DNA of 64,000 bases from the NCBI GenBank assembly GCA_035906255.1, contig JAMIFM010000011.1:39607-103606 (forward strand), given 5' to 3'. The notes below the pieces were generated by a model. It was not told the origin of the DNA. It did no database searches and was given only the letters and a program-made list of their open reading frames with translations. This document shows positions 3,819 through 30,352 of this stretch, piece after piece. Positions within the stretch are counted from its first letter, which is position 1. Each line of letters begins with the position of its first letter. Origin of the DNA: Bacteroidia bacterium (GTDB lineage Bacteria > Bacteroidota > Bacteroidia > UBA8524). A program made the position numbers and the translations under genes.

Positions 3819-6332
3819 TTATTTGTTTTGGGGAAGACTTAATAAATTCACAAATAAGCGGTAAGCACCGGGTACACCGTCGGGCAATTCTCTAAAAAAC
3901 GAAAGTCCGGTATATACAAAGTTTCCTTTGCCGTATGGAGCAATAATCAAACTGCCTGTTTGTGCTTCTTCGTTAGGGTCGGCCATTTCAAGCACGTGTA
4001 TAAAATTTTCACTCAATTCGGTAGCAAAGTAAATACCGCGTTCTTGCACCCAACCTTCAAAATCAGCATCGCCAATCTTATTAGGATAAGTTAGCGCGGG
4101 ATGTTCAGGGTTCGGAAACTTAACCGAAGCTGTTTCATCAGTAACCCTATTACGTGAAATGGTAAAATCATAAGGACCTATTTTGCCTGCAAATGGCCCT
4201 ACCCTGCTGTTGGTGTTATATTGCACAATAAAATTACCGCCGTTGTTTATATACTCATTAATACGGCTATTAAGCTGCAATAAACGAGCGTTGGTATTGT
4301 AGGCGCGTATTCCCGTTACAATTGCTCCGTATTTACTTAAATCATCGTTGGCAAGCATATCATCAGTAAGCTCAACTACTTTGTAACCTATTAAACGTAA
4401 GCTATTGGCCACCTCATCACCCGCACCGGGTATGTAACCAACAGTAATGTTTGTTCTTTGCAAAGGAATACTCACCAATTTGGCTTCGGCATCACTTAAT
4501 GTAAACTGATAAGGAATATGGTCGTACTGCACCCGTTGTATGGCTTTGTTGTAGGTTTTCCCGTCTATTTTTAATGAAGCAATAACACTACTATTCACAC
4601 TGTTGGGTGTGGCTCGCAATATAGCTTCTAATACCTGCTCCTCACCTTTATTCGCAATAGTAAACGAAGCATTTTTTAAGGTGATTTGCCATCCTGCGGG
4701 TATCTCTGCTTTTAAAGTCCCCTGTACGTTATTCTTATTGGCTTTTACAATAAACTTAACAGTTTGTGGTGTAGTATCACCAAACACATACGATTGTTCA
4801 GCAATATTTACCGTAGCAGGCGGTAACACCTCCAACGGACGGTACACCTCACCTTTTACAGGGTCGGTATATTTATAAATTACAGGTTGTTTCAAAGCCA
4901 ACTCAAGCCCTGCAACATTCACATAAAAAGTAACGAATATTGACCCGCCGTTTTCAGGTTTGCCACGTAATAATTGATTGTTAACAGCATAAAGTCCCAA
5001 TGTATGACTGTCTTTTAACCAATAAGGGGTTGAAAATGCTGTATTTGCCGATAATTTTTCGGTGTGTGAATATGAGAACAGTTTAGGAAAATACTCCCCT
5101 TTTTTATTGATTGCGGAAAGCTGGTTAATAACGGTGTCGGTTTGCCCAAAATAATTTACTTTTTTAAGCTCTACTGCAATACTACTGTTTACTACCCACT
5201 GGGCATTGACAGACAGGTTTTCCCCCGGTATAGCAACATAATCAGTTGCCCCCGCCTCAATCCATATTCCGGCGCAAACCAATATCAAGTTTTCGGTTTC
5301 CTGCAATTTTTGGGCTTTCCAATACCGTAAAGCAGCATCGGTTTCGTCTAATTGTTGCAAGGTTTTATACAGCTCTGTCAATCCGTTTACGGATAGCTCA
5401 GGTGACATGGGCTTGTAATCGGCTATTATTTTATCAATTTGTTTCTGTATTTTTTTAGTTCCTGTCAATCTTGCCCACGTTTGATCGATACCTTCAAACA
5501 AATCACGGCTTACAGAGTCTCCTTTTATTTGCTGAAAGAACTCGATTACCTCGCCCCTGCCCCTTGCTGAGCCAAATCCTTGGCTTTTATGATTAGAGCG
5601 GCTGTCGGCGGCTATTTCCCCATATCCTTTACCCAACAACGGATTATACAGCCCCACATTAATTTGCATTTGCTCGGGTGCAGTAGTATTAGTAGTACCA
5701 AAATTATATGAGTTCCAAAACACGCGCTTGGCTTGCCATATTTGCACGTATTGCAGTTGTTCAGGGAAACGGGTAGGGTCGGCGGCGGCATCAAATGCTT
5801 CTTCGGCCAATATAGCAGAGGCTGTATGATGTCCATGACCGCCTCGTCCGTCGGTGGGAAAACGGCAAATAATCACATCAGGTCTAAAATTACGTATTAC
5901 CCACACCACATCAGCCAGTATGCTGTCTTTGTTCCAAAATCCAAAGGTTTCTTGCGGGTTTTTGCTATAGCCAAAATCATTAGCACGGGTAAAAAACTGT
6001 TCCGCCCCGTCGGTGCGACGTGCTGCCAATAACTCTTGGGTACGTATTAGCCCCAATTGCTCTCCCAACTCTTTACCAATCAGGTTTTGGCCACCATCAC
6101 CCCTTGTAAGCGAAAGATAGCCTGTTCGCAATTTTCGCTCGTTGGCCAAATAGGCCAGCAAACGGGTGTTCTCATCGTCAGGGTGTGCAGCAACGTATAA
6201 AACCGAGCCAACGGTGTTTAACTTGTTTAATTTTTGTAGTATTTCTGCTGAGTTGTACTGGGGCGAGTTTTGCGCCTTTACACATACACTGATAAGCAGA
6301 GTGAAGTATATAAAAAAAGTGCTACGTTTCAT
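3819..6332 (-). CDS. PIG-L/LmbE family N-acetylglucosaminyl deacetylase. Large multidomain protein with a signal peptide.
   Basis: The N-terminal VAAHPDDEN...HGHH motifs are typical of PIG-L/LmbE zinc deacetylases. 837 aa. The C-terminal region resembles a ThuA/GATase1-like fold (inference). Signal peptide MKRSTFFIYFTLLISVCVKA. Confidence 0.75.
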   Translation of the reverse strand: MKRSTFFIYFTLLISVCVKAQNSPQYNSAEILQKLNKLNTVGSVLYVAAHPDDENTRLLAYLANERKLRTGYLSLTRGDGGQNLIGKELGEQLGLIRTQELLAARRTDGAEQFFTRANDFGYSKNPQETFGFWNKDSILADVVWVIRNFRPDVIICRFPTDGRGGHGHHTASAILAEEAFDAAADPTRFPEQLQYVQIWQAKRVFWNSYNFGTTNTTAPEQMQINVGLYNPLLGKGYGEIAADSRSNHKSQGFGSARGRGEVIEFFQQIKGDSVSRDLFEGIDQTWARLTGTKKIQKQIDKIIADYKPMSPELSVNGLTELYKTLQQLDETDAALRYWKAQKLQETENLILVCAGIWIEAGATDYVAIPGENLSVNAQWVVNSSIAVELKKVNYFGQTDTVINQLSAINKKGEYFPKLFSYSHTEKLSANTAFSTPYWLKDSHTLGLYAVNNQLLRGKPENGGSIFVTFYVNVAGLELALKQPVIYKYTDPVKGEVYRPLEVLPPATVNIAEQSYVFGDTTPQTVKFIVKANKNNVQGTLKAEIPAGWQITLKNASFTIANKGEEQVLEAILRATPNSVNSSVIASLKIDGKTYNKAIQRVQYDHIPYQFTLSDAEAKLVSIPLQRTNITVGYIPGAGDEVANSLRLIGYKVVELTDDMLANDDLSKYGAIVTGIRAYNTNARLLQLNSRINEYINNGGNFIVQYNTNSRVGPFAGKIGPYDFTISRNRVTDETASVKFPNPEHPALTYPNKIGDADFEGWVQERGIYFATELSENFIHVLEMADPNEEAQTGSLIIAPYGKGNFVYTGLSFFRELPDGVPGAYRLFVNLLSLPQNK

Positions 6333-6539
6333 TGTTGTAACAGCAAATGTATTGATTTAAGGTTCTGTTGTAAATTATTTTGATACAAAGCCAATTATTG
6401 CTCACAAATCAGGCCAAAAATCAACATTACTTTTAGTTACAAACTTGTAAGCTAACTGGATTTTTTTTTAGTAAGTAAAAAATATTGTACATTTACGAGC
6501 GATTGTTCGTTTTATAAATAGCTAATTTCTTGTTGTAAT

Positions 6540-6917
6540 ATGAGGGAACTTATTACAAGAACTGAGACCATCACTCTTGATGAGTCGGGAATTGTTAGGT
6601 GCATCGTTCACAAAGATGCTTATATGGAATTAGAGGATGCCATTGAAAATGTTAAAGCAGTTGAAACTTTAACAAACGGCAAACCCATCCCTGTGTATGT
6701 TGATATCAGGTTATCAAAAGGCTCCTCAAAAGAAGCGAGGGCATATTTGGCCGGCTTTGAGGTTGCTGATGTACAGGTGGCTTGCGGCCTTCTTGTAGAT
6801 TCAATGTTATCTCAATTAATTGGTAATTTTTTTCTGGGACTTAATAAAACAAAGTTTCCTGTTAAACTTTTTAAAGACGAAGAAAAAGCAATGGAGTGGC
6901 TTAAAACATATTTATAG
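6540..6917 (+). CDS. Small STAS/SpoIIAA-like (DUF3478-type) protein, a putative partner-switching or sensor module for the downstream kinase.
   Basis: 125 aa. The stop TAG at 6915-6917 directly abuts the ATG of the histidine kinase. The fold call rests on the alternating beta/alpha pattern and the C-terminal ...KLFKDEEKAMEWLK motif typical of that family (recollection, not a search). Confidence 0.45.
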   Translation: MRELITRTETITLDESGIVRCIVHKDAYMELEDAIENVKAVETLTNGKPIPVYVDIRLSKGSSKEARAYLAGFEVADVQVACGLLVDSMLSQLIGNFFLGLNKTKFPVKLFKDEEKAMEWLKTYL

Positions 6918-7790
6918 ATGGAAATATTAGTTGAGAGGAAAAGGATTAATGAATTAATAGAAATGATAGGGGCTATGGCAAGTCTTGATTTCTCAAAGCG
7001 GATTGCTACCGAAATTACCGACCAGCCTATTGACGTAATGGCATACGGACTAAATATGCTAAGTGAAGAATTGGAAGCCAATATGGTTAGAAAATCAATG
7101 TTGGAAGAAACCAACCGCAATTTGGAACGGTTTGGTTTTACAGTGGCACATGATATAAAATCACCGCTAAGTTCTGCATATACCTTAACCACACTTATAG
7201 AAGATGAGTTGGAGGGGATTGAAAATCAAACCTTAAAAAACTACATCCAACTGCTTAAGGGAATAAATGAACAAACCCGCGAAATGGTAAATGGTATCTT
7301 GGATTACTCAAGAACCAATTACAACAACATGAAGAAAGAAGATGTAGATTTAAAAAGCCTTCTGGGTCAAATAAAACAAGAATACAGCGTTAACGAATCT
7401 ATACATATCACGTTTTCTGATAACCTGCCGATAGTAAATTATAACGCCTTTGCATTGAAACAGATTTTGGGTAACCTTATAAACAATGCTGTGAAACATA
7501 ACGATAAACCTCAATGTAAACTTGAAATACAACATATTGATAGGGAAACTTTTTATGAAATCTCCGTTACCGATAACGGACCGGGTATTTCTATAACTGA
7601 TAAAGAAAAGGTGTTTGATTTGTTTGAAAACCTTAGGAGTGATAAAGAAAACAGTCATGGTGTAGGCCTATCAATAGTAAAAAAATTGGTTACTCAGGCC
7701 AATGGCTCAGTATGGGTGGATACCAATAATAAAAGTGGGGCAAAATTTGTATTCACCATTGATAAACCTTCTGTTGCCATTGGTGTTTAA
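6918..7790 (+). CDS. Cytoplasmic sensor histidine kinase (HisKA + HATPase_c) with no TM or obvious sensor domain.
   Basis: H-box at VAHDIKSPL. N box (NLINNAVKHN), G1 (VTDNGPGI) and G2 (GVGLSIVKKL) are present. N-terminal ~60 aa are coiled-coil. No hydrophobic segments. Confidence 0.85.
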   Translation: MEILVERKRINELIEMIGAMASLDFSKRIATEITDQPIDVMAYGLNMLSEELEANMVRKSMLEETNRNLERFGFTVAHDIKSPLSSAYTLTTLIEDELEGIENQTLKNYIQLLKGINEQTREMVNGILDYSRTNYNNMKKEDVDLKSLLGQIKQEYSVNESIHITFSDNLPIVNYNAFALKQILGNLINNAVKHNDKPQCKLEIQHIDRETFYEISVTDNGPGISITDKEKVFDLFENLRSDKENSHGVGLSIVKKLVTQANGSVWVDTNNKSGAKFVFTIDKPSVAIGV

Positions 7791-7829
7791 TCCTATTTGT
7801 TAAACACTACTTATCATTAGCCTCAAAGC

Positions 7830-7838
7830 GTATCTTTG
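7830..7838 (+). promoter_or_regulatory. Candidate Bacteroidetes sigma-A -7 element (TAnnTTTG) immediately upstream of the ddl-like gene. Implies a very short or leaderless 5' UTR.
   Basis: The sequence gcgTATCTTTGcgcc ends about 5 nt before ATG 7843. Matches the established Bacteroidetes -7 consensus TAnnTTTG. No computed scan was done. Confidence 0.3.
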
Positions 7839-7842
7839 CGCC

Positions 7843-10518
7843 GTGATAAAAGTTGGCATATTTTTCGGCGGAGCTTCTCGCGAAAGAGAAGTATCGTTTT
7901 CAGGCGGCAGAACCGTGTATGATAACCTTAATAAGTTATTGTTTGCACCTGTTCCGTTGTTTGTGGATAGCTTTAATACCATTATTCTTTTAAACAAAGA
8001 ACTGATATACAAAGGCAGTATCCGAGATTTTTACCCACCCGTACAATACCTGCCCGAAACACAGCATAATTTTCAAGTATATATCGAAAGTTTAGAAGCC
8101 GATGTTAAAAACGGTAACATAAACTACGAGGAGATGATAGGTCGTATTGGCCGCAAAGTGAATATTGACGAGTTACCACAACTGATTGATATAGCTTTTT
8201 TGGCTTTGCACGGCAGCTATGGCGAAGACGGCACTATACAGGGTTTGCTTGAATGGTTAAAAATTCCCTACACCGGTTCGGGCATTTTACCTTCGGCAAT
8301 AGGTATTAGTAAGGCAATACAAAAACAGTTTTTGCAGGCAGGTGGGTTTGATACCCCAAATTACACGCTGGTAACCCGCAACCAATGGGAAGAAAACCGT
8401 TTAGTTAATACACTTTCGCTTACCTATCCGTTGGTAGTGAAACCTGCCAACCAAGGTTCATCATTGGGAGTTAGTGTAGTAAAAACAGCAGACGAATTAG
8501 CGGCGGCTATTGATAAAGCCTTCTTTAATATTACTGTTACTGCATACGAATGGAATCAATTAAACACACTTCAAAAAATTGAATATGTGCGTTCTGTGTG
8601 CGACATACGCGAAGGATTAGGACTACCGCTATTGTTTAATAATAAGCAGATTAACCTGCCCGACGAGGTATTAAATACTTTCGAACAGGAATTGCAAAAT
8701 GCACCCCATGTTAACTTACAGGCACTGCAAAATGAAAGTGAGGTATTGATAGAGGAGTTTGTAAAAGGTCGTGAATTTTCATGTATTGTTATCAGAGGGC
8801 TGGATGGAAAACCTGTTGCCTTGCCTCCTACCGAAATTGTAAAAGGACAAGAGGTGTTTGATTACCGCTCTAAATACCTGCCCGGATTATCGCGTAAAGT
8901 AACCCCGATTGATTTGCCCGAAGCTCAAATAGAGGCTATTCGTCAAAAAGCACAGCAGCTATACAGCTATTTCAGGTTTAATACTTATGCCCGATTGGAT
9001 GGCTTTATTACTACAGAAGGTAAAATCTTCTTAAACGACCCTAATACCACCTCAGGCATGATGCCCTCGTCATTTTTCTTCCATCAGGCAGCAGAAATAG
9101 GGTTAAACCCCTCACAGTTCCTTACTTATATACTTTATACCAGCTTGAAAGAACGTATTGAAACCAGCATGGAAAACTTCCATTACAAGGCTGTTTTTAA
9201 TCGTTTAGAAACCGAGCTTTCAAATACCGCAAACCAAGCCCAAGAAAAGAAACGCATTGCTGTGGTTATGGGCGGTTATTCTACCGAGCGACATATCTCT
9301 ATGGAGAGCGGACGCAATATTTATGAAAAACTTTCATCATCGCCCAAATACACCCCCGTTCCTGTGTTTTTAACAGGCAGTGACGAATCTTACCAAATGT
9401 ATCTTGTTCCGGTAAGCATGATGCTGAAAGACAATGCCGATGATATTGCCGAGAAGGTGAAAAACTATCACCCCAACCCCTACCTGCAAAAGATTGCCGA
9501 TGAATGCCTGCCTGTTTTGCAGCGTTTCGGTAACGGACAAAAGCACGATGCAACACCTCATTTAATTGGGTTTGAACAATTGGCACAATTAGCCGACGGT
9601 GTATTTATTGCCTTGCACGGAAGACCGGGAGAAGACGGCAACTTGCAAGTACAGCTTGAAAAAGTAGGTTTGCCTTATAACGGTTCAGGGTATTACAGCT
9701 CACAAATCACCATTAATAAGTACGATACTGCTGAATTATTGGCCGCTAACGGATTTTCGGTAGCACCGCACGTATTGGCCAAAAAAGAAGACTGGGCAAC
9801 TGACAGCGCAGCGTTTTATGATAAAATACTGTCGGTTACAGGGCTGCCGATGATTGCAAAACCTGCCGACGACGGGTGTAGCAGTGCGGTGAAAAAGATA
9901 AAAACCCGCGAGGAACTGGATGCTTTTGCCCGTTTGATGTTTAGGGAAACCGAAACCCGTGAGCCTGAATTGGAACAACGATTAAAATTATTACCCAAAG
10001 AGGAGTTTCCGCGTAAAAGTTATTTCTTGGCCGAAAAGTTCATTGACAAATCGGATGCTAAAATATTTTTAGAAGTTACCGGCGGTTTGCTTACCCACCG
10101 GACAGAAAACGGTGGAATACGCTATGAAATGTTTGAACCCAGCGAAACACTGGCCGAAAAAGAAATCCTTTCGCTTGAGGAAAAGTTTTTGGCAGGACAG
10201 GGGCAAAACATTACCCCTGCGCGTTATTCAAAAGAGCCTGTTGAAGACCGCTATATTGCCGATGCGGTGAAAACCGAGTTGGAAAAGGCGGCAAAATTGT
10301 TGAATATTGAAGGCTACGCGCGGATAGATGCTTTTGTAAAAGTACACCACAACAACCAAGTGGAAGTAATATTTATAGAGGTTAATTCGTTGCCCGGTAT
10401 GACCCCCGCTACTTGCATCTTTCATCAAAGTGCATTAAACGGGTATATGCCTTATGATTTTATTGATAAAATATTACAATACGGTTTCACCAAAAACAAT
10501 GCACAGCAAGCAAACTGA
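7843..10518 (+). CDS. ddl: Tandem-duplicated D-alanine--D-alanine ligase-like protein (two complete ATP-grasp Ddl modules in one 891 aa polypeptide).
   Basis: Both halves carry Ddl hallmarks. Module 1 has GGxSxExEVS, HGxxGEDGxxQGLLE and an ATP-grasp core (LVVKPANQGSSLGVSVV, EEFVKGREFSC). Module 2 has RIAVVMGGYSTERHISMESG, LHGRPGEDGNLQ, MIAKPADDGCSSAV and the C-terminal EVNSLPGMT. Module 1 has unusually long inserts. Confidence 0.75.
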   Translation: MIKVGIFFGGASREREVSFSGGRTVYDNLNKLLFAPVPLFVDSFNTIILLNKELIYKGSIRDFYPPVQYLPETQHNFQVYIESLEADVKNGNINYEEMIGRIGRKVNIDELPQLIDIAFLALHGSYGEDGTIQGLLEWLKIPYTGSGILPSAIGISKAIQKQFLQAGGFDTPNYTLVTRNQWEENRLVNTLSLTYPLVVKPANQGSSLGVSVVKTADELAAAIDKAFFNITVTAYEWNQLNTLQKIEYVRSVCDIREGLGLPLLFNNKQINLPDEVLNTFEQELQNAPHVNLQALQNESEVLIEEFVKGREFSCIVIRGLDGKPVALPPTEIVKGQEVFDYRSKYLPGLSRKVTPIDLPEAQIEAIRQKAQQLYSYFRFNTYARLDGFITTEGKIFLNDPNTTSGMMPSSFFFHQAAEIGLNPSQFLTYILYTSLKERIETSMENFHYKAVFNRLETELSNTANQAQEKKRIAVVMGGYSTERHISMESGRNIYEKLSSSPKYTPVPVFLTGSDESYQMYLVPVSMMLKDNADDIAEKVKNYHPNPYLQKIADECLPVLQRFGNGQKHDATPHLIGFEQLAQLADGVFIALHGRPGEDGNLQVQLEKVGLPYNGSGYYSSQITINKYDTAELLAANGFSVAPHVLAKKEDWATDSAAFYDKILSVTGLPMIAKPADDGCSSAVKKIKTREELDAFARLMFRETETREPELEQRLKLLPKEEFPRKSYFLAEKFIDKSDAKIFLEVTGGLLTHRTENGGIRYEMFEPSETLAEKEILSLEEKFLAGQGQNITPARYSKEPVEDRYIADAVKTELEKAAKLLNIEGYARIDAFVKVHHNNQVEVIFIEVNSLPGMTPATCIFHQSALNGYMPYDFIDKILQYGFTKNNAQQAN

Positions 10519-11288
10519 TGGCAAATAAATTCGTTACGGGCTTTTTACATTCAAAATGGTGGGCAAAACTGCTTATAGGCATTGCATCGGTATTACTATT
10601 CTTGCTGGTAATAAATTGGTTGTTGAAATTTATCACCAATCACGGGCAAAGTTTACCCGTGCCTAAAGTAAAGGGATTGGTTTTTGACGAAGCTACCCGT
10701 TTGCTGGATGAAAAAGATTTGCGTTATGTGGTGTTTGATTCGGTGTATGTACCAAAAGCCAAACCCAACCAAGTGGTTGACCAAAACCCGGCTGAGGGTA
10801 CCAAAGTGAAGAAAAACCGCATTGTGTACCTTACCATAAATGCACGACCCGTACCTATTGTGAAGGTACCCGATATTTTGGATATTGGCCTGCGTGAAGC
10901 AGTAAGCAAACTTACTGCCGAAGGTTTGGAAGTGGGCGAAATTACCACCCGTGCCGATTTATCAGTAAACAGGGTATTGGGTATTAGCATCAATGGTAAA
11001 AAAATAAAAGCGGGTGATGCGATTGAAAAGGGAAGTAAGATTGATTTGGTGATAAGCAAAGGCGAGGACGCGAGTGACAAGAATATTGTGATGCCCGATC
11101 TTGCAGGATTAACTTTAGACGAAGCCACAATAGAATTGAGCCTTTTAGGGTTAAATATAGGTGCGGTATCGTACGATAAAAACGTTACCGATAAAATAAC
11201 GTCCAAAATATACCGCCAAACCCCCGATGCGGGTAGAGGTGCCTATATTGGGCAGGAAATTGATTTGTTTTTAAAGCAAAGCGACTAA
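10518..11288 (+). CDS. Membrane-anchored protein with three PASTA domains.
   Basis: Its ATG overlaps the ddl TGA (cTGATGg). N-terminal TM (WAKLLIGIASVLLFLLVINWLL) is followed by three ~65 aa repeats with a PASTA-like pattern (VPxLxGLxxxEAxxxLxxxGL...). 256 aa. Confidence 0.7.
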   Translation: MANKFVTGFLHSKWWAKLLIGIASVLLFLLVINWLLKFITNHGQSLPVPKVKGLVFDEATRLLDEKDLRYVVFDSVYVPKAKPNQVVDQNPAEGTKVKKNRIVYLTINARPVPIVKVPDILDIGLREAVSKLTAEGLEVGEITTRADLSVNRVLGISINGKKIKAGDAIEKGSKIDLVISKGEDASDKNIVMPDLAGLTLDEATIELSLLGLNIGAVSYDKNVTDKITSKIYRQTPDAGRGAYIGQEIDLFLKQSD

Positions 11289-11290
11289 TA

Positions 11291-13171
11291 ATGTTTAAAA
11301 AGCTATCGGGCGCAATAGCCCTTATATGTATTGGTTTTGGTGTAAATGCTCAGCTAAATGAGGAGATGTTGGTTCCCCTTACGGCAAACCCTGCACTAAA
11401 ACAGCAATTGCAACACAAAAATTCAAACTCAACCTTTATACGCAAAAGCGGTATTAAAGACACCTTGCTACTGCCTTTTTTTGAGGATTTTTCTAAAGGT
11501 GAAGTATTTCCTGATGAAAACCGCTGGACGAACCGGCTGGCCTATGTAAATACGGATTTTCCTGTAAAAGCACCCAGTATAGGTGTGGCTACTTTAGACG
11601 CACTTGACAGTACAGGTCGCCCTTATTTAAACATTCGGGCTGATTTACACGGCCCTTGTGATACCCTTACCTCACAACCTATTGATATTTCGGCCTACAG
11701 CAGTGGAAACAATATCTTCCTGAGCTTTTTTTATCAGGCACAGGGTTTAAGTTTTCAATCGTTACAAGGCAAAGACTCTTTAATCCTTCAATTTAAAAAT
11801 AACTTAGGATTTTGGTACACCGTATGGTCAACACCCGGTATAGCATTAGCTGATTTTAAACCTGTGTTGCTAAAATTAGAAGCCACTGAATATTTCCATG
11901 CAGGTTTCCAGTTCCGTTTTATTAATTATCAAAGCTATATAGGCGGTGTGGGTCAATGGCACCTTGATTATATATACATGGAACGTAATCGTACCGCAGC
12001 CGACAGTGTTTTTGCCGATGTGGCGGTTTCACAAAAACCAATGTCGTTTTTGAAAGAATACCAAGAAATGCCTTTTGACCAATTCAAAGGGTTTGAATCA
12101 TTGGAAGTTACCGATAGCACAAGAGGATATTTAAGCAATTTATTTGACCAAGGCCGTACGGTTGACGTTTTTAACCGCCAAGTATATGATGATGCAGGGA
12201 ATTTGGTAATTAACCAACCCGGTAGCGGTTTTTCTATTGACCCGTTCAGCGAAAAAGGGTTCGGGGTTGCCTCTAATTACAACGTTGTTGCCCGTACCGA
12301 AGATACTGTAACCTATACGGCTTCTGAGTTTTTAAAAATTACGGGAGCAAATTTCAGGATTGCAAACGATTCAGTTAGCCGTAAACTCACGTTTGCCAAT
12401 TATTATGCTTACGACGACGGTACTGCTGAAACAGGCTACGGACTAAAGCGCGGTTCGGGCAAAATAGCCTATCGTTTCAGACTTAACAAACCCGATAGTT
12501 TGCGCGCTATCTCGGTGTACTATTTTCAGGCTGAAGACACCGTTAAACGTGCATTTAACCTTGCTGTTTGGGAAAGTATTTCTCCTAACGGCTCTAATGA
12601 AAAACTATTATATACTAAGCTGGTAAATTACCCCAGCTATACCGACTCAATAAACGGTTACCATACCTATGTTTTAGACAGTGCTATTGCCGTGAGCGGT
12701 GAGTTTTATATCGGTTGGGTACAAACCACTACTTTCCATCTTAATGTAGGCTGGGATCGTAATTTTACCCGCGACCGTAAAGCAATAGCCAGCCCTGATT
12801 TGTATTTTAATACTACAGGTAAGTGGTATCTTTCTGAAATACCCGGCACGTTGATGATGCGTCCGCACGTAGGTAAAAACTTCATACAAGACACCACTTT
12901 GGTAAGTGTGAAGCCCTTGAGTTCTTTAAACCGCAACACCGTTAATGTGTATCCCAACCCCGCTTCAACTGAAATTTCGGTAGATATAGCCCAACAAGAT
13001 ATATACACCTACTCTATTACTGACATAGCAGGAAAAACTATTAACACAGGGGTTATAAACACTTTTGAAACAAATACACTGCCTATCAGTATATTGCCAA
13101 ACGGATTATATTTTTTAACTTTACATAATCCTAATACAGGATTTTACACGACTAAATTCATAAAACAGTAA
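11291..13171 (+). CDS. Secreted T9SS cargo protein (C-terminal Por secretion tail) of unknown function.
   Basis: Signal peptide is present. The C-terminal ~80 aa (VNVYPNPAS...LPNGLYFLTLHNPNTGFYTTKFIKQ) match the T9SS type A CTD. Starts 3 nt after the PASTA gene stop. Confidence 0.75.
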   Translation: MFKKLSGAIALICIGFGVNAQLNEEMLVPLTANPALKQQLQHKNSNSTFIRKSGIKDTLLLPFFEDFSKGEVFPDENRWTNRLAYVNTDFPVKAPSIGVATLDALDSTGRPYLNIRADLHGPCDTLTSQPIDISAYSSGNNIFLSFFYQAQGLSFQSLQGKDSLILQFKNNLGFWYTVWSTPGIALADFKPVLLKLEATEYFHAGFQFRFINYQSYIGGVGQWHLDYIYMERNRTAADSVFADVAVSQKPMSFLKEYQEMPFDQFKGFESLEVTDSTRGYLSNLFDQGRTVDVFNRQVYDDAGNLVINQPGSGFSIDPFSEKGFGVASNYNVVARTEDTVTYTASEFLKITGANFRIANDSVSRKLTFANYYAYDDGTAETGYGLKRGSGKIAYRFRLNKPDSLRAISVYYFQAEDTVKRAFNLAVWESISPNGSNEKLLYTKLVNYPSYTDSINGYHTYVLDSAIAVSGEFYIGWVQTTTFHLNVGWDRNFTRDRKAIASPDLYFNTTGKWYLSEIPGTLMMRPHVGKNFIQDTTLVSVKPLSSLNRNTVNVYPNPASTEISVDIAQQDIYTYSITDIAGKTINTGVINTFETNTLPISILPNGLYFLTLHNPNTGFYTTKFIKQ

Positions 13172-13179
13172 ACAATTAT

Positions 13180-13491
13180 ATGGACATTACCTCCGAAGAA
13201 TTAAAAACGCGCATGGATAATGGTGAAGACCTTATCGTAATTGATGTGCGTGAGCCTCACGAATACGAAGAATTTAACATTGGCGGTCGCCTTATTCCAT
13301 TGGGTACATTGCCTACAGTGGTTGATGAGTTGGAAGACCTTAAAGGCGAAGAAATAATAGTACACTGCCGCAGCGGTGCCCGCAGCGGACAAGCAAAAGC
13401 ATACCTTGGTTCGATTGGTTTTACAAACGTTCGCAATTTGCTGGGCGGTGTAATGGACTGGCAGGCCAAGTATGGCGCAACCATGAAATAA
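13180..13491 (+). CDS. Single-domain rhodanese-like sulfurtransferase.
   Basis: 103 aa. Active-site loop CRSGARS. Typical rhodanese fold length. Confidence 0.85.
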   Translation: MDITSEELKTRMDNGEDLIVIDVREPHEYEEFNIGGRLIPLGTLPTVVDELEDLKGEEIIVHCRSGARSGQAKAYLGSIGFTNVRNLLGGVMDWQAKYGATMK

Positions 13492-13511
13492 GATTAAGAT
13501 TTAAACTTTAT

Positions 13512-13548
13512 AAACTAAAAAAGCCCCAAAACGGGGCTTTTTTAGTTT
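13512..13548. terminator. Bidirectional rho-independent terminator: 15-bp perfect palindrome aaactaaaaagcccc-aaaa-ggggctttttagttt.
   Basis: GC-rich stem flanked by A-runs and T-runs on both strands. Lies between convergent rhodanese and CapA-region genes. An identical copy is at 25716-25750. Confidence 0.6.
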
Positions 13549-13555
13549 ATGTGCC

Positions 13556-13612
13556 TTTCGACTTACCATCTTGAGCCTGCCGAAAGAGCCTTGAGCTTGT
13601 CGAAAGGCTTAT
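13556..13612 (+). repeat. Two tandem degenerate copies of the F-module of the mosaic repeat (ccttgagcctgccgaaagag / ccttgagcttgtcgaaagg).
   Basis: Matches ...ccatcttgagcctgccgaagggtg at 51880-51910 and cctgagcttgccgaaggg at 1968-1986. Confidence 0.45.
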
Positions 13613-13613
13613 A

Positions 13614-14687
13614 TCATTTCTTTTTCACTACTTCTCCGTCATCACTTATTAATAGCGGTGTTTCAGGAAAATCGACTTTTGTAAGTTCTTGTATTAGCTT
13701 CAATGCCCATTGTTTTTCGATATCTACAACGGGTATGCCCTCTCCTATTTGTTTAATCGGTGTGATTTTAGCTCTTATAAAATTGCCTTTGGTATCGGTA
13801 GTTACTTTTACTATAGGAGCCACACCACTTTCGGCAGTCAGGCTAAAACGGTCATAAGTGGCAAAATTGCCCAAACTGTAGCAAATCAAGCGGTTGTTAT
13901 ACAACTCCATTGCGCGGGTCACGTGCGGCCCATGCCCAAATACAATATCAGCCCCCGCATCAATCACCGCATGGCTAAACTCGTACACATTCCCCCTGTT
14001 TTCACCAATAAACATTTCGGTATCGCGGGTTACGTGCTGTCGGTCACGGCCTTCCCCACCCCCGTGAAACGATACAATCAACACATCACACATACTATCC
14101 AAAGCGGCTACAATCACTTTAGCCCCTTCAATATCTTTAATACTTACCGTACCGCTATTGGGTGCAAATGCCGCTAACCCATACTTTATACCGTCTTTTT
14201 CTATTACTGTGGTTGGGCAGCTTAGCAAGCCTGCATATTGCAGCCCGCATTCTTCAAGAGTATTCATGGTAATTTCACGGCCTTCGGCACCAAAATCACC
14301 ACTGTGGTTGTTGGCAATGCTCAATAAATCAAAACCTGCATCTTTATAATATTTTGCATAATGCAAGGGCGAACGGAAAGCATAACACACTTTTGGGTTG
14401 CTGCATTTCTTTACTTTACCCTTATTGCCCGCTAACGTACCCTCAAGGTTACCAAAAGTAATATCAGCATCCTGCAAAATAGCCCTTACACTATCCAACA
14501 GGTTTTTACCGTCGTTCGGGGGTAAATGTTTTTCGCTGGGGTAATTTGTCCCCAACATCATATCACCCACACCAATAATCGTTAACACACGCAACGAAGT
14601 ATCATGCGATGCCGGATATGTTTCTACTTGTGCTGTGGCTTTAAATACAGATAATGCGATGTATAACGATGTTATTATGTATTTCAT
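13614..14687 (-). CDS. CapA/PGA_cap family metallophosphatase-like protein, secreted.
   Basis: Signal peptide is present. Motifs GVGDMMLG, ...NLEG..., NNHSGDFG and GHGPHV are typical of CapA (YwtB) family calcineurin-like phosphoesterases. Start overlaps the upstream MerR gene stop by 4 nt. Confidence 0.7.
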   Translation of the reverse strand: MKYIITSLYIALSVFKATAQVETYPASHDTSLRVLTIIGVGDMMLGTNYPSEKHLPPNDGKNLLDSVRAILQDADITFGNLEGTLAGNKGKVKKCSNPKVCYAFRSPLHYAKYYKDAGFDLLSIANNHSGDFGAEGREITMNTLEECGLQYAGLLSCPTTVIEKDGIKYGLAAFAPNSGTVSIKDIEGAKVIVAALDSMCDVLIVSFHGGGEGRDRQHVTRDTEMFIGENRGNVYEFSHAVIDAGADIVFGHGPHVTRAMELYNNRLICYSLGNFATYDRFSLTAESGVAPIVKVTTDTKGNFIRAKITPIKQIGEGIPVVDIEKQWALKLIQELTKVDFPETPLLISDDGEVVKKK

Positions 14688-15034
14688 TTGGCTTCTTTGT
14701 CCAGTATGTCTTTTATATCTGTTAACAGATTGCGTATTTTATACAGGCTGTCAATAATCTCCACTTTCTTTGTCCCTTGTCCCTTATCCAGTTTTAGTTT
14801 TTCATTAGCCCCTTGTAATGTATAGCCTTGTTCCTTCACCAAGTGATATATCAGGCGCAAATTAGCCACATCATCACGGGTAAACTGGCGATTTCCCTTA
14901 CTATTCTTTTTAGGCCGCAATACATCAAACTCCTTTTCCCAAAAGCGGATGAGCGAAGCATTCACATTCAGCATGGCCGAAACCTCACTGATAGAATAGT
15001 ACATTTTGTCGGGGTTTTCTTCTTCGGGCAGCAT
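14684..15034 (-). CDS. MerR-family HTH transcriptional regulator (small, 116 aa).
   Basis: N-terminal YYSISEVSAMLNVNASLIRFWEKEF is a MerR-type HTH. Coiled-coil C-terminus. Its start overlaps the M23 gene stop by 1 nt. Confidence 0.7.
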   Translation of the reverse strand: MLPEEENPDKMYYSISEVSAMLNVNASLIRFWEKEFDVLRPKKNSKGNRQFTRDDVANLRLIYHLVKEQGYTLQGANEKLKLDKGQGTKKVEIIDSLYKIRNLLTDIKDILDKEAK

Positions 15035-16002
15035 CAGTCAAATGATTGGTTATTGGCCGCAGCCAGTTCTTTAATACGTTCGTAATCTTCGGGCGACAAA
15101 TCGTTATAGTAAAAGTGTACGGGATTTACCTTATCCCCGTTTTTAATAATCTCGTAATGCAAGTGCGGGGCGGTTGACAAACCCGATGAACCAACGGTTC
15201 CGATACGTTGCCCCCTGCTGATGGTTTGGCCTTGCTTGGCTTCTACCTTCGTCATGTGGGCATATAAACTCTCATAGCCGTATCCGTGATTAATAATCAC
15301 GTGATAGCCGTACCCTTCATTATACCCTGCAAAAGTAACCGTGCCGTTTCCTGTGGCATAAATAGGAGTTCCTTTACTGGCTGTGAAATCCATGCCCGAG
15401 TGCATTTTAACTGTTTTATAAATAGGATGGATACGATAACCGAAACCCGAAGCCACACGGGTAAGTTCTTTGTTTGAAATGGGCTGTATGGCGGGTATGC
15501 TTGCCAACATATCCTGCTTGCGTTTGGCACGTTCTAAAATATCATCAAACGAGGCTGATTGAACTTTCATTTTTGAAGCAAGATTGGTTAGCTTCACTTT
15601 CATCCGCTCCATATTATCTTCTTCGTCCAATCCCACCTTATTCTTATACCGTTCAAAAATACTTCGCGGGTCTTTAGTACTGTCTTGAATCAGGGGAGCT
15701 TCAAACACTACACGGTATATTTCCTCGTCGCGTTTATTCAATTGGTCTAATGAGGCCGATAACTCATCCACCGTTTTTTCATACAACGATACCTGTAACC
15801 TGTATTCGTCAAGCCTGTCTTCAAGTATTTTTTCTTTGGGTGAACTGAAATAGGTATATGCCACAGCCATGATGATAGCTCCTAACACGGCTGATGCACT
15901 TAAAAAACCAAATACACGCAACGCCATTTTGCCCCAACTGGTATGGGCAATTTCATAAGTAAGACTGTGCGGATCGAAAAAGTACTTGGTCTTTTTTGCC
16001 AT
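15034..16002 (-). CDS. M23 family metallopeptidase (LytM-like) with an N-terminal TM anchor and coiled coil.
   Basis: HxxxD and HxH motifs (HSGMDF ... APHLHYE) of M23 peptidases. N-terminal hydrophobic segment. Confidence 0.85.
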   Translation of the reverse strand: MAKKTKYFFDPHSLTYEIAHTSWGKMALRVFGFLSASAVLGAIIMAVAYTYFSSPKEKILEDRLDEYRLQVSLYEKTVDELSASLDQLNKRDEEIYRVVFEAPLIQDSTKDPRSIFERYKNKVGLDEEDNMERMKVKLTNLASKMKVQSASFDDILERAKRKQDMLASIPAIQPISNKELTRVASGFGYRIHPIYKTVKMHSGMDFTASKGTPIYATGNGTVTFAGYNEGYGYHVIINHGYGYESLYAHMTKVEAKQGQTISRGQRIGTVGSSGLSTAPHLHYEIIKNGDKVNPVHFYYNDLSPEDYERIKELAAANNQSFD

Positions 16003-28336: not shown

Positions 28337-30352
28337 TTATTCTTTTATAAACTTTTGGGTGTAACTACCCTTGTTATCTACTGCTTGAATAATGTATAGC
28401 CCTGCGGGCAACGCCTGCAAAACCAACTCATTTGTATTTTGGGTAGATAATACTTTACGGCCTTCGGCATTAAAAACAATAATCCTGTTATATACTTCTC
28501 CGGTTCCGATAGTTATTGCTTCTTTTGCAGGATTAGGATATACAGCCAATGTGTTTGTTTTATTTGCTTGAATGCCCGTTACCACACTTTCAATAGGCAA
28601 ACGCCATACGCCTGCCCCTGAGCCTGCAAACAAAAACGAATCGCTTTGGTGAAATACATTTACCACCAAACCCTCGATGTTTTTGATATAGTTCCATTGC
28701 ATTGATGCGGTATCCCTGAACATAAACCCTGATGTAGTTGAAGCATACATACGGTTTTGTGTGAGCGACAACGAGTTGGCAAACGTAACTCCACCCAAAT
28801 AATAATGGCGAGGCCATACTAATCCATCTTCAGAAATATGGGTATCAATTCCAATTTTCAGCCAAAGTGTACCGTTTACCCTGCGGATAAAGAACACCTC
28901 ACGCCGCGGAATATTGGCAGGATTAACAATCGTAAACGAAAACCCATCGTTATCCGATGAGTAAATACCGCCCGTAGTACCTGCATACACAATTCCGTTA
29001 TCAAAATACAAATCGGTATAATCATAAGGGATAATATTATCGGCATATTTCACCCACACTTGCCCTCGGTTTGGGCTGCGGTATATACCGCCTTTGGTAA
29101 GTGCAAACAGTTGATTACCGATTTTTAACAACCGTAAAATGTTTTTATTACCCAGTCCGTTATTTGACGGTTCCCATAAAAGGTTATTACCTGCCACATA
29201 CACCCCACCTGTATCAGTACCCACAATCAACTTATCGGGATAGGTAGTAAACGAATTAATAACAGGCCACCCAACGTTGCCCACCTCTGTCCAATTATCA
29301 GCCGTCTTTTCAGTACGAAACAGCTTACCAAATGCCGTTGTATATACATACCCGTTTTGCTCCTCAAGATTAGTGATAGTGCCTGTAAGCAATTCATTGT
29401 TCATCGGTTTCCAAGTAATAGCAGCAATGCTACCCCTCAGCAACCCGTGTTTTTGAGTACCCGCAAACTTAATGGCCGCAGGTGTACTAAGAGCTGCATT
29501 CACAGTCATAGCCGAGTCCGTATTAAACTCCCAATCCAGCATCCAAGTTCGCCCTGTATCAAAGCTCTCATACAATCTATACGTATTATATGCAATCAAC
29601 ATCCCATTATGGGCGGTGATGCCTGTAATGTTTTTCACCGTAGTATCAACCGTCCAGTTGTTACCGTTATTTCTCGACACCCAAATACTGCCCCCTGCTA
29701 AAAACAAAGTACTATCAATAATCTCCAACTGAGCGCACTGACTGCAACTGCCTGCAACGCTCACATTTTGCCAGCTTTGCCCCCCATCGTCCGATTTAAA
29801 CAACCCTGCATTATAAGTCAATGCCCAAAACCTTGTGCCGTCGGTTTCCAAGTCCAACACATTGTTATCCAACATTCCGTTGTTGGCTTTCCCCCAACTT
29901 TGACCGTTATCGGTTGAGCGAAATACGCCGTAACTGGAAGTAGCAGCCATTAATACCCCATTGGCCGAAGCAAAAGAGGTGATGGGTTTTTCAATAGGCA
30001 GTCCGCTGTTTATAGCCGTCCAACTGTTGCCCTTATCGGTTGATTTATATACGCCCCGTAATGTAGTAGCCACCAATAACCCGTTGTGATAGCTGAGCGA
30101 ATAAATGGTAAAGGTATTCACTCCGTTGTTAGTGGCTTCCCACGGTGAAAAAGGCTGGTTTGATGCCCTGAAAATCCCGCTGTTTGCCGTACCAATCCAC
30201 ACAACGGTATCGTTGGTGGCAATGCAGGTAACTGTGCCCGCCGGACCATAAAAATCAGGTACAGGGCCTTTCATTCGTTGCCACTGCGCATTTGCAAAAG
30301 TGCTTACCAAACAAAACAGCAGCAAAGCATATAAACGGTATAGGTGTTGCAT
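28337..30352 (-). CDS. BNR/Asp-box repeat beta-propeller protein (sortilin/Ycf48-like) with a T9SS C-terminal domain.
   Basis: Six or more S-x-D-x-G-x-(T/S)-W repeats (STDKGNSWT, STDNGQSWG, SDDGGQSWQ, SRNNGNNWT, SFDTGRTWM, SPNRGQVWV). Signal peptide. C-terminal VYPNPA...GLYIIQAVDNKGSYTQKFIKE. Confidence 0.75.
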   Translation of the reverse strand: MQHLYRLYALLLFCLVSTFANAQWQRMKGPVPDFYGPAGTVTCIATNDTVVWIGTANSGIFRASNQPFSPWEATNNGVNTFTIYSLSYHNGLLVATTLRGVYKSTDKGNSWTAINSGLPIEKPITSFASANGVLMAATSSYGVFRSTDNGQSWGKANNGMLDNNVLDLETDGTRFWALTYNAGLFKSDDGGQSWQNVSVAGSCSQCAQLEIIDSTLFLAGGSIWVSRNNGNNWTVDTTVKNITGITAHNGMLIAYNTYRLYESFDTGRTWMLDWEFNTDSAMTVNAALSTPAAIKFAGTQKHGLLRGSIAAITWKPMNNELLTGTITNLEEQNGYVYTTAFGKLFRTEKTADNWTEVGNVGWPVINSFTTYPDKLIVGTDTGGVYVAGNNLLWEPSNNGLGNKNILRLLKIGNQLFALTKGGIYRSPNRGQVWVKYADNIIPYDYTDLYFDNGIVYAGTTGGIYSSDNDGFSFTIVNPANIPRREVFFIRRVNGTLWLKIGIDTHISEDGLVWPRHYYLGGVTFANSLSLTQNRMYASTTSGFMFRDTASMQWNYIKNIEGLVVNVFHQSDSFLFAGSGAGVWRLPIESVVTGIQANKTNTLAVYPNPAKEAITIGTGEVYNRIIVFNAEGRKVLSTQNTNELVLQALPAGLYIIQAVDNKGSYTQKFIKE

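What the first reader, a model, noticed from the sequence alone, without database searches (positions are those of the whole stretch)
7843..10518. Tandem-duplicated D-Ala-D-Ala ligase (two full Ddl modules fused, 891 aa) with long inserts in module 1
Both halves carry the Ddl N-domain and central-domain motifs and a full ATP-grasp C-domain. Module 1 is interrupted by long insertions (about 70 aa after the first beta-alpha unit, about 40 aa in the central domain). Module 2 is more canonical and ends with EVNSLPGMT. A covalently fused double Ddl is not the textbook form, which is a homodimer of about 300-360 aa subunits. One module could be degenerate or regulatory. Alternatively the modules could have different substrate specificity (D-Ala-D-Ala versus D-Ala-D-Ser/Lac/other) and feed a modified peptidoglycan or another D-amino-acid dipeptide. 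The gene sits immediately downstream of a two-component sensor pair.
Basis: partly seen in the sequence, partly recalled or inferred. Interest (0 to 1): 0.6.

Follow-up and report, generated by a model that had tools for sequence, protein, structure and literature searches.

The report
Two-module fused D-Ala-D-Ala ligase
[quoted passage not shown] The design is conserved in three bacterial phyla and I found no study of it; the second copy may make a different product.

Summary
Window 7843-10518 (+) is one uninterrupted 891-aa ORF with two complete Ddl modules. It is not a frameshift: hundreds of genomes carry the same single ORF.

The tandem form belongs to an old, widespread family.
- About 890 aa in Bacteroidota (Hymenobacter, Pontibacter and many MAGs).
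- About 780 aa in Patescibacteria.
- About 740 aa in Dependentiae.

Both modules keep every ATP, Mg and catalytic residue, so neither is degenerate. They differ by fixed substitutions at the substrate site.
- Module 1 is "Y-type": S150 and Y216 kept, but E270 is D.
- Module 2 is "F-type": S150C, Y216F, S281T.

In lactic acid bacteria, Y versus F at this position separates dipeptide from depsipeptide ligases.

The upstream histidine kinase is incidental.

The real partner is the downstream TM+PASTA gene. It is adjacent in 52 of 71 loci and fused in some relatives. Some of those fusions have lost all catalytic residues.

AlphaFold predicts a compact two-module body (pTM 0.89).

Best reading: a covalent heterodimeric housekeeping Ddl with two non-redundant active sites. 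The product of module 2 is unknown. This is a new variant of a known kind.

The parts
7843..10518 (+). Tandem Ddl gene, 891 aa, GTG start, TGA stop
   Evidence: Full-length homologues.
7843..9165 (+). Module 1 (aa 1-441), the Y-type Ddl. Residues, with DdlB numbering in brackets: E14(E15), H123(H63), K157(K97), K200(K144), S206(S150), S207(S151), E304(E180), E311(E187), K344(K215), Y345(Y216), R384(R255), D386(D257), D399(E270), N401(N272), G405(G276), S410(S281), F411(L282).
7969..8154 (+). N-domain insert of module 1 (about aa 43-104). Mean pairwise identity 54% across the family, measured over aa 43-110.
8524..8730 (+). Central-domain insert of module 1 (aa 228-296). Predicted as a small alpha/beta subdomain, block-mean pLDDT 84-95 (mostly above 90). 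Present only in the Bacteroidota type.
9166..9249 (+). Inter-module linker (aa 442-469), mostly one long helix (446-468). Poorly conserved, 24% identity.
9250..10515 (+). Module 2 (aa 470-891), the F-type Ddl-like module. Residues, with DdlB numbering in brackets: E482(E15), H592(H63), K626(K97), K673(K144), C679(S150), S680(S151), E731(E180), E744(E187), K781(K215), F782(Y216), R827(R255), D829(D257), E846(E270), N848(N272), G852(G276), T857(S281), C858(L282).
9367..9552 (+). N-domain insert of module 2 (about aa 509-570), at the same position as the insert of module 1
10518..11288 (+). Downstream partner gene: N-terminal TM helix plus 3 PASTA domains, 256 aa. Its ATG overlaps the ddl stop codon (TGATG).
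   Evidence: Adjacent in 52 of 71 loci. Fused to tandem Ddl in P0123, P0124 and P0126.
11291..13171 (+). 626-aa protein with a T9SS C-terminal sorting domain. Next gene in the cluster; function unknown.
   Evidence: Syntenic in 48 of 80 loci.
13180..13491 (+). Single-domain rhodanese, 103 aa, last gene of the tight cluster
   Evidence: Syntenic in 21 of 80 loci. Also follows the dead Ddl-PASTA fusion in L089.
7831..7838 (+). TATCTTTG, a match to the Bacteroidota -7 promoter motif TAnnTTTG, 4 nt before the GTG. A possible own promoter with a very short leader.
   Evidence: Read directly from the sequence. The motif consensus is from my own knowledge. Not tested.

Best explanation
The gene encodes this lineage's D-alanine-D-alanine ligase in a covalent "heterodimer" form. 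Two diverged Ddl modules are joined by a helical linker and pack into one compact body, which stands in for the usual homodimer of 300-360-aa subunits.

- **Module 1.** It keeps the canonical D-Ala site (the E15/S150/Y216 triad). It most likely makes D-Ala-D-Ala for MurF.
- **Module 2.** It keeps every ATP, Mg and catalytic residue, so it is most likely an active ATP-grasp ligase too. Its lid and substrate pocket are fixed as C150/F216/T281. That is the Phe-type configuration found in natural depsipeptide ligases and in the E. coli Y216F and S150A gain-of-function mutants. I therefore infer a second, non-redundant activity: D-Ala-D-X with altered or relaxed choice of second substrate. D-lactate is the leading candidate.
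- **Partner.** The enzyme works with the downstream membrane protein (TM helix plus three periplasmic PASTA domains). That protein probably tethers it to, or couples it with, the site and state of peptidoglycan synthesis.

Shown here: the architecture, residue conservation, distribution, synteny and fusions. Inferred: the pseudo-dimer geometry, activity of both sites, the product of module 2, and the role of PASTA.
For: **Architecture and conservation**
- Two full Ddl modules sit in one ORF.
- More than 120 full-length homologues have at least 55% identity.
- Tandem relatives extend down to about 31% identity.
They include Hymenobacter, Pontibacter, Solirubrum and Rhodocytophaga.
- The tandem form also occurs in Patescibacteria and Dependentiae. 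Some of these contigs are 1.1-1.6 Mb long.

**Active-site residues**
- In 211 tandem proteins sampled from the three groups, these positions are identical in both modules: E15, H63, K97, K144, S151, E180, E187, K215, R255, D257, N272.
- Fixed differences between modules are S150 S/C, D211 D/S, Y216 Y/F, E270 D/E, P275 S/P and S281 S/T.
- Both modules are equally conserved.
- Module 2 is orthologous across phyla. Window module 2 scores 197 and 226 bits against CPR and TM6 module 2, but 123 bits against its own module 1.

**Evidence that catalysis is selected for**
- Loss of catalysis is visible when it happens. PASTA-fused relatives P0173, P0176, P0179, P0180, P0196 and P0240 have lost these residues in both modules. 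Their retention here therefore reflects selection.
- In one AT-rich organism the two module types are kept as separate, unlinked genes.

**Pathway and partner links**
- A tandem-Ddl-MurF fusion, P0260, ties the family to the D-Ala-D-Ala to MurF step.
- AlphaFold gives pLDDT 87.7 and pTM 0.89 for the window protein, and pTM 0.85 for the insert-less TM6 type.
- The Y versus F rule for dipeptide versus depsipeptide comes from PMC5996685.
- PASTA linkage.
Against: - No enzymology exists for any member.
- Y216F DdlB still makes D-Ala-D-Ala (my own knowledge of Park, Lin & Walsh 1996). So F782 does not prove a different product.
- Van-type models score far below their cut-offs: 54 against 775 for VanA, and 72.5 against 550 for the D-Ala-D-Lac model.
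- No D-lactate dehydrogenase, VanH or VanX-like gene was found among the 30 window ORFs scanned.
- Module 1 itself deviates at a metal ligand (E270D), so "module 1 = fully canonical" is not strict.
- I could not obtain model coordinates, so the pseudo-dimer geometry rests on pTM alone.
- I could not check whether these genomes carry another ddl.
- The fixed differences are no more concentrated at active-site positions than conserved columns are in general (4 of 8 against 11 of 24).
- PASTA is absent from 19 of 71 loci.
Confidence: 0.5

Rival explanations
1. Plain covalent homodimer. Both modules are ordinary D-Ala-D-Ala ligases. The fusion only fixes stoichiometry and stability, and the C150/F216/T281 changes are tolerated variants with no change of product.
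For: - All catalytic residues are present in both modules.
- E. coli Y216F retains dipeptide synthesis (own knowledge). The PDB entry 1IOW for that mutant is the best sequence match of module 2.
- No D-lactate or Van accessory genes lie nearby.
- The whole protein passes the Ddl subfamily cut-offs.
Against: - The differences are fixed and practically invariant over three phyla. Neutral variants would drift.
- Streamlined CPR and TM6 lineages, represented by contigs of 1.1-1.6 Mb, keep both modules.
- A split lineage keeps both types as separate genes.
- Both points argue against redundancy.
Confidence: 0.27
2. Module 2 is a regulatory or sensor module rather than a product-forming enzyme. It binds ATP and D-Ala or D-Ala-D-Ala and controls module 1, or it serves as the docking platform for the PASTA membrane protein.
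For: - Tight genetic coupling and repeated fusion with TM+PASTA.
- Catalytically dead tandem-Ddl-PASTA proteins exist in the same kind of locus. The scaffold therefore has a use without catalysis.
- Module 2 lacks the S150/Y216 hydrogen-bond partners.
Against: - The metal ligands (D257, E270, N272) and the catalytic K215 and R255 are fully retained in module 2 in all three phyla.
- In the dead relatives exactly these residues decay. That is the pattern expected once catalysis is not needed.
Confidence: 0.15
3. Artefact: a sequencing frameshift or assembly join of two adjacent ddl genes.
For: None found.
Against: - One uninterrupted ORF.
- The same single ORF is present in all 80 fetched genomes and in 120 or more clustered proteins from independent sources.
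- The linker region is present in all of them.
Confidence: 0.01

Closest known systems
Canonical D-alanine-D-alanine ligase (E. coli DdlB, PDB 2DLN/1IOV; DdlA; TIGR01205 / NF002378)
   Same: - Same three-domain ATP-grasp fold. Foldseek TM-scores are 0.72-0.89 normalised to the targets.
- Same ATP, Mg and catalytic residues in both modules.
- Module 1 keeps the E15/S150/Y216 triad.
   Different: - One 891-aa chain with two diverged modules, instead of a homodimer of 300-360-aa subunits.
- Module 1 has D at E270 and F at L282.
- Module 2 has C150, F216, T281 and C282.
- Extra inserts are present: about 62 aa in each N-domain and 69 aa in the central domain of module 1.
Phe-type D-Ala-D-lactate ligases of lactic acid bacteria (Leuconostoc LmDdl2, PDB 1EHI) and the E. 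coli DdlB Y216F/S150A mutants
   Same: Module 2 has Phe at the Tyr216 position, and the Ser150 hydroxyl is absent. PMC5996685 states that Phe versus Tyr at this site determines depsipeptide versus dipeptide activity.
   Different: - Module 2 is not closely related to these enzymes. 1EHI is only a weak match of module 2 (E 2.4e-14, against 1.5e-21 for E. coli DdlB).
- It is always paired with a Tyr-type module.
- No evidence of D-lactate supply genes was found.
VanA/VanB (D-Ala-D-Lac) and VanC/VanG (D-Ala-D-Ser) resistance ligases
   Same: Ddl-family enzymes with an altered omega-loop residue that redirects choice of the second substrate.
   Different: - Scores are far below the curated cut-offs.
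- No His244-type residue is present.
- No Arg at the L282 position. That is the VanC/VanG hallmark, from my own knowledge; module 2 has C, V or A there.
- No van operon context.
MurC-Ddl bifunctional protein of Chlamydia (NF011171 / PRK14573)
   Same: A precedent for Ddl as part of a fusion protein in the peptidoglycan precursor pathway. Some pipelines (JGI) mis-name the tandem Ddl as "UDP-N-acetylmuramate--alanine ligase".
   Different: The window protein has no Mur ligase domain. It scores 175.7 bits against a cut-off of 1015. The fusion partner here is a second Ddl.
Carbamoyl-phosphate synthetase large subunit (CarB): an internal duplication of two ATP-grasp modules
   Same: Two homologous ATP-grasp modules in one chain. 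Both are catalytic and each is specialised for a different step (my own knowledge). This is the best-known analogy for the mechanism proposed here.
   Different: CarB belongs to an unrelated ATP-grasp subfamily. Its two sites act in sequence on one pathway intermediate through a tunnel. No such coupling is indicated for Ddl.
PknB/Stk1 PASTA Ser/Thr kinases
   Same: - The downstream protein matches only the TM+PASTA half of the Stk1 model (positions 333-561 of 563).
- In fused relatives the tandem Ddl occupies the cytoplasmic position that the kinase domain has in PknB.
   Different: There is no kinase domain. The cytoplasmic module is a metabolic ligase, or in some relatives its dead derivative.

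Membership tests
D-alanine-D-alanine ligase (EC 6.3.2.4; PF01820 + PF07478; TIGR01205 / NF002378) | Recognised by the family HMMs above their curated cut-offs | tested here: met
   - Whole protein: 378.2 bits against 243 (NF002378) and 376.6 against 245.65 (TIGR01205).
- Pfam N-domain 158.9 bits and C-domain 204.2 bits.
- Each half alone falls below the subfamily cut-offs: module 1 scores 236.6 and 233.1 (marginal), module 2 scores 149-150.
D-alanine-D-alanine ligase | ATP and Mg ligands: K97, K144, E180, E187, D257, E270, N272 | tested here: met
   All are present in both modules and near-invariant in 337-438 tandem proteins. The one exception is that module 1 always has D at E270.
D-alanine-D-alanine ligase | Catalytic K215 and R255, and the oxyanion residue G276 | tested here: met
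   K344, R384 and G405 in module 1. K781, R827 and G852 in module 2.
D-alanine-D-alanine ligase | D-Ala1 hydrogen-bond triad E15 / S150 / Y216 | tested here: inconclusive
   Met in module 1 (E14, S206, Y345). Not met in module 2 (E482, C679, F782). The module 2 pattern is invariant across three phyla.
D-alanine-D-alanine ligase | Homodimer of subunits of about 300-360 aa | tested here: not met
   A single 891-aa chain of two 25%-identical modules. It is predicted as one compact body, pTM 0.89.
D-alanine-D-alanine ligase | Forms D-Ala-D-Ala from two D-Ala plus ATP | not testable with these tools
   Needs an enzyme assay. The indirect support is the tandem-Ddl-MurF fusion P0260.
D-Ala-D-lactate ligases (VanA-type NCBIfam models; Phe-type LAB Ddl) | Scores above the curated model cut-offs | tested here: not met
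   Module 2 scores 72.5 against 550 (NF000206) and 54.3 against 775 (VanA).
D-Ala-D-lactate ligases (Phe-type LAB Ddl) | Phe instead of Tyr at the active-site lid position (DdlB 216) | tested here: met
   F782 in module 2, 100% conserved. The rule is taken from PMC5996685.
D-Ala-D-lactate / Van systems | Companion genes for D-lactate supply or D-Ala-D-Ala removal (VanH-like dehydrogenase, VanX dipeptidase) | tested here: not met
   None among the 30 window ORFs scanned with Pfam. The rest of the genome was not available.
D-Ala-D-serine ligases (VanC/E/G/L/N) | Model cut-offs, and Phe at position 216 together with Arg at the DdlB L282 position | tested here: not met
   VanG model: 97.7 bits against 495 for module 2. 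Position 282 is C, V or A, never R. The Arg hallmark is from my own knowledge.
MurC-Ddl bifunctional enzyme (NF011171) | Mur ligase domains fused to Ddl | tested here: not met
   No Mur ligase Pfam hit. Score 175.7 against 1015.

The most novel reading that the evidence does not exclude
The tandem Ddl and the TM+PASTA protein form a trans-membrane device. It links the state of the periplasmic wall, read by the PASTA domains, to the cytoplasmic supply of the stem-peptide terminus. The two active sites make two different termini: D-Ala-D-Ala from the Tyr-type site, and D-Ala-D-X (for example D-lactate) from the Phe-type site. The catalytically dead Ddl-PASTA fusions would be the signalling or scaffolding half of this device, retained after the chemistry was lost.
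Probability: 0.15. Interest if true: 0.85.

Novelty: new variant of a known kind. Interest (0 to 1): 0.6.

Why it matters
Ddl is an essential, heavily studied antibiotic target (D-cycloserine; vancomycin resistance). It is taught as a homodimer with one kind of active site. Here a large part of Bacteroidota, several Patescibacteria lineages and Dependentiae use a heterotypic tandem instead. It pairs a Tyr-type and a Phe-type site, and the pairing has been fixed since before these groups diverged or exchanged the gene.

If the Phe-type site makes a different terminus, many environmental bacteria would have dual-terminus peptidoglycan precursors. That bears on intrinsic glycopeptide insensitivity, on substrate choice by MurF and the PBPs, and on D-cycloserine action.

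The recurrent coupling to PASTA proteins, and the dead derivatives, suggest a previously unnoticed link between wall sensing and precursor synthesis.

Practically, annotation pipelines call these proteins plain "D-alanine--D-alanine ligase", "hypothetical protein" or even MurC. No curated model separates them.

Tried and rejected
- **Frameshift or chimera.** Rejected. The same single ORF is present in all 80 fetched genomes.
- **Functional link to the upstream "two-component pair".** Rejected. The genes are a STAS-like DUF7793 protein plus a soluble histidine kinase, with no response regulator. They are syntenic in only 2-3 of 80 loci.
- **"Module 2 more canonical" and "one module degenerate".** Rejected.
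- **Van-type or MurC-Ddl membership.** Rejected on scores and hallmark residues.
- **Enrichment of fixed differences at active-site positions.** p is about 0.001 against all positions, but there is no enrichment against conserved columns (4 of 8 against 11 of 24). I do not use this as an argument.
- **D-lactate or Van accessory genes in the window.** None found.
- **Sigma-70 promoter and terminator scan of 6300-13800.** Fewer promoter-like sites than in shuffles, so uninformative for Bacteroidota.
- **Literature.** Five full-text searches found no description of a tandem or double Ddl. This is absence in the held library only.
- **A second canonical ddl in the same genome.** This could not be tested. 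None of the 88 loci has a second Ddl-like ORF.
Full report
**1.

The window has one uninterrupted ORF at 7843..10518 on the + strand. It starts with GTG and encodes 891 aa.
- Pfam finds the Ddl N-terminal domain twice and the Ddl C-terminal ATP-grasp domain in four stretches (E 1e-46 and 2e-60).
- The NCBIfam Ddl subfamily models score 377-378 bits, above their cut-offs of 243-246.
- The two halves align with each other end to end: 25% identity, E 3e-35.
- The N-terminus MIKVGIFFGG matches the N-termini of homologues, so the GTG start is correct.
- No other Ddl-like ORF is present in the 64-kb window.

**2.

I aligned both modules to E. coli DdlB. My reference sequence is 306/306 identical to PDB 2DLN/1IOV.
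- Module 1 has an N-domain insert of about 62 aa (roughly residues 43-104).
- Module 1 also has a 69-aa insert at residues 228-296, not about 40 aa.
- Module 2 has the same N-domain insert (about residues 509-570) and several short inserts.
- Module 1 is the more canonical half by score: 233 bits against 150 on TIGR01205 when each half is scanned alone.
- The upstream genes are a DUF7793/SpoIIAA-like protein (6540-6917) and a 290-aa soluble HisKA+HATPase kinase (6918-7790). There is no response regulator.

**3. It is not an artefact, and it is not rare**

- The protein search returned more than 120 full-length proteins of 886-913 aa (886-903 apart from P0005, P0086 and P0120) at 55-95% identity, from Bacteroidota genomes and metagenomes.
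- The exhaustive representative search found tandem proteins down to about 31% identity.
571 matches were confirmed.
- The best 80 loci include cultured Pontibacter, Hymenobacter, Solirubrum and Rhodocytophaga. They also include many Bacteroidia, Chitinophagales and Saprospiraceae MAGs.
- Each of the 80 loci has a single ORF containing both modules, and no second Ddl-like ORF.
- The closest records are mislabelled: 94-95% identity to an "Agrobacterium" MAG and an "Oscillatoria amoena" assembly. The window's many T9SS-tail proteins and a SusE-like domain point to Bacteroidota.

**4. The family spans three phylum-level groups**

- Shorter tandem proteins of about 760-840 aa, without the Bacteroidota inserts, belong to Patescibacteria: Gracilibacteria, Peregrinibacteria and Moranbacteria.
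- Those of about 725-825 aa (mostly about 740) belong to Dependentiae/Babeliales.
- Several sit on contigs of 1.1-1.6 Mb.
- HMMs built from window-family module 1 and module 2 show that the C-terminal module of every type is module-2-like over its full length (220-256 bits, against 57-85 for the module-1 HMM).
- BLAST bit scores agree. Window module 2 scores 197 and 179 against Patescibacteria module 2, 226 against Dependentiae module 2, and only 123 against its own module 1.
- So the pairing of module types predates the split of these groups, or it was transferred as a unit.

**5. Active-site anatomy**

I sampled 211 tandem proteins from the three groups.

Positions conserved and identical in both modules:
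- G10, G11, E15, S19, H63, G64, E68, G70
- K97, K144, G149, S151, E180, E187
- K215, R255, D257, N272

This is the whole set of ATP, Mg and catalytic residues.

Positions conserved but different between the modules:

| DdlB position | Module 1 | Module 2 |
|---|---|---|
| S150 | S | C |
| A191 | I | G |
| I201 | T | S |
| D211 | D | S |
| Y216 | Y | F |
| E270 | D | E |
| P275 | S | P |
| S281 | S | T |

In the window protein:
- Module 1 reads E14, S206, K344, Y345, R384, D386, D399, N401, S410, F411.
- Module 2 reads E482, C679, K781, F782, R827, D829, E846, N848, T857, C858.

Both modules are about equally conserved within the Bacteroidota family (60% against 62.5% mean pairwise identity). 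The N-domain inserts are well conserved (51-54%), the central insert less so (36%), and the linker poorly (24%).

Half of the fixed differences fall on my pre-listed active-site residues. So do 11 of 24 identically conserved columns, so this is not an extra enrichment.

**6. What loss of catalysis looks like in this family**

Long relatives of 1,100-1,285 aa are tandem Ddl fused through a TM segment to PASTA domains.
- P0123, P0124 and P0126 keep all motifs.
- P0164, P0170 and P0174 are partly eroded.
- P0173, P0176, P0179, P0180, P0196, P0199 and P0240 still align over both modules but have replaced essentially all catalytic positions.
- The P0173 gene is followed by a rhodanese gene, as in the window cluster.

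This contrast argues that the intact residue set of module 2 in the window protein is maintained by selection for catalysis. It also shows that the tandem scaffold plus PASTA has some use beyond chemistry.

**7. Both module types are kept when separated**

In one very AT-rich organism a module-1-type protein (P0213, 432 aa) and a module-2-type protein (P0215, 402 aa) are encoded by separate, unlinked genes.
- Both come from the same sample.
- GC content is 20.5% and 26%, and the tetranucleotide correlation is 0.99.
- That they come from the same organism is likely but not proven.

**8. Genomic context**

- The ddl stop codon overlaps the ATG of the next gene (TGATG at 10516-10520).
- That gene encodes a 256-aa protein with an N-terminal TM helix and three PASTA domains.
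- It matches only the TM+PASTA half of the Stk1/PknB model.
- A PASTA gene lies directly downstream in 52 of 71 loci that have enough sequence.
- A 626-aa T9SS-tail protein follows in 48 of 80 loci, and a rhodanese in 21 of 80.
- The upstream kinase is present in only 3 loci.
- One Patescibacteria relative (P0260) is tandem Ddl fused to MurF. This ties the family to the D-Ala-D-Ala to MurF step.
- A TATCTTTG match to the Bacteroidota -7 box lies 4 nt before the GTG (the consensus is from my own knowledge).

**9. Structure**

- AlphaFold2 with a 99-sequence alignment gives mean pLDDT 87.7 and pTM 0.89.
- Low confidence is confined mainly to the two lid (omega) loops, around residues 340-350 and 775-790.
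- The canonical C-terminal helix of module 1 is followed by one long linker helix (446-468) that leads straight into strand 1 of module 2.
- The 228-296 insert is predicted as a small, confident alpha/beta subdomain.
- The insert-less Dependentiae protein gives pLDDT 88.9 and pTM 0.85.
- Such pTM values for 750-890 residues imply a fixed packing of the two modules. I infer a pseudo-dimer like the Ddl homodimer, but I could not check this because coordinates are not returned.
- The top 50 Foldseek PDB matches listed are all Ddl or Van ligases, with target-normalised TM-scores of 0.71-0.89.

**10. Interpretation**

The most economical reading is a covalent heterodimeric Ddl with two catalytically competent but non-equivalent sites.
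- E. coli Y216F and S150A mutants gain D-Ala-D-lactate synthesis (my own knowledge: Park, Lin & Walsh 1996).
- Module 2 naturally combines F216 with C150.
- I therefore favour a second, non-redundant activity for module 2, of the form D-Ala-D-X.
- The rivals are a plain fused dimer and a regulatory module 2. My confidences are 0.5, 0.27 and 0.15.

Evidence against my preferred reading:
- Y216F DdlB still makes D-Ala-D-Ala.
- Van-type models score far below their cut-offs.
- No D-lactate or Van accessory genes were found in the window.
- Module 1 itself has E270D.

**11. Novelty**

- No curated NCBIfam model separates this architecture.
- Source annotations range from "D-alanine--D-alanine ligase" to "hypothetical protein" and "UDP-N-acetylmuramate--alanine ligase".
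- Five full-text searches found no description of it.
- It is a new variant of a known enzyme kind, not a new kind.
- Interest is moderate to high. The target is classical, the distribution is large, and the hypothesis can be tested directly.

Noticed in passing
L089:816-4457 (P0173); also P0176, P0179, P0180, P0196, P0199, P0240; graded forms P0164, P0170, P0174: Proteins of about 1,200 aa that are tandem Ddl + TM + PASTA fusions. They align over both modules but have lost essentially all catalytic residues in both. The P0173 gene is followed by a rhodanese gene, like the window cluster. They look like pseudo-enzyme derivatives of the same locus.
   Followed up: partly
L081:6001-7209 (P0215) and L084:5613-6911 (P0213): In a very AT-rich organism (20-26% GC) the module-2-type and module-1-type Ddl are separate, unlinked genes. 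An alanine racemase gene lies about 4 kb from the module-1-type gene.
   Followed up: partly
P0260 / P0272 (1,262 aa, Logan contigs): A tandem Ddl of the Patescibacteria type fused at its C-terminus to a complete MurF-like Mur ligase (Mur_ligase_M and Mur_ligase_C domains).
   Followed up: partly
window 11291-13171 and 13180-13491: A 626-aa protein with only a T9SS sorting tail recognisable, and a 103-aa rhodanese, follow the PASTA gene with 2-nt and 8-nt gaps. They are syntenic with tandem ddl in 48 and 21 of 80 loci. Their link to the ligase is unexplained.
   Followed up: partly
window 6540-7790: A DUF7793/SpoIIAA-like (STAS-like) gene ends one base before the start of a soluble HisKA+HATPase kinase gene (6917/6918). 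This is a partner-switching-like pair rather than a kinase/response-regulator pair. It is not conserved next to ddl.
   Followed up: partly
window 7831-7838: TATCTTTG, a match to the Bacteroidota -7 promoter motif, lies 4 nt upstream of the GTG start. It suggests a separate promoter and an almost leaderless transcript.
   Followed up: no
L001, P0001 and several other loci: Public records that carry this Bacteroidota-type gene are labelled Agrobacterium sp., Oscillatoria amoena, Bifidobacteriaceae, Synechococcus or Saccharibacteria. These are likely mis-binned or contaminated assemblies. JGI names many tandem Ddls "UDP-N-acetylmuramate--alanine ligase".
   Followed up: no
window 28337-30352, 54139-56847, 57364-61692, 61764-63911: Four further large proteins with T9SS C-terminal sorting domains. 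One has Calx-beta and SusE-like domains, and one has CHU_C-associated Ig domains. This is consistent with a Bacteroidota origin.
   Followed up: no
window 13614-14687 and 15034-16002 (- strand): A PGA_cap (CapA-like) protein and a Peptidase_M23 protein lie just downstream of the cluster on the opposite strand. Both are envelope-related. The CapA-like gene is syntenic in only 2 of 80 loci; synteny of the M23 gene was not tested.
   Followed up: partly
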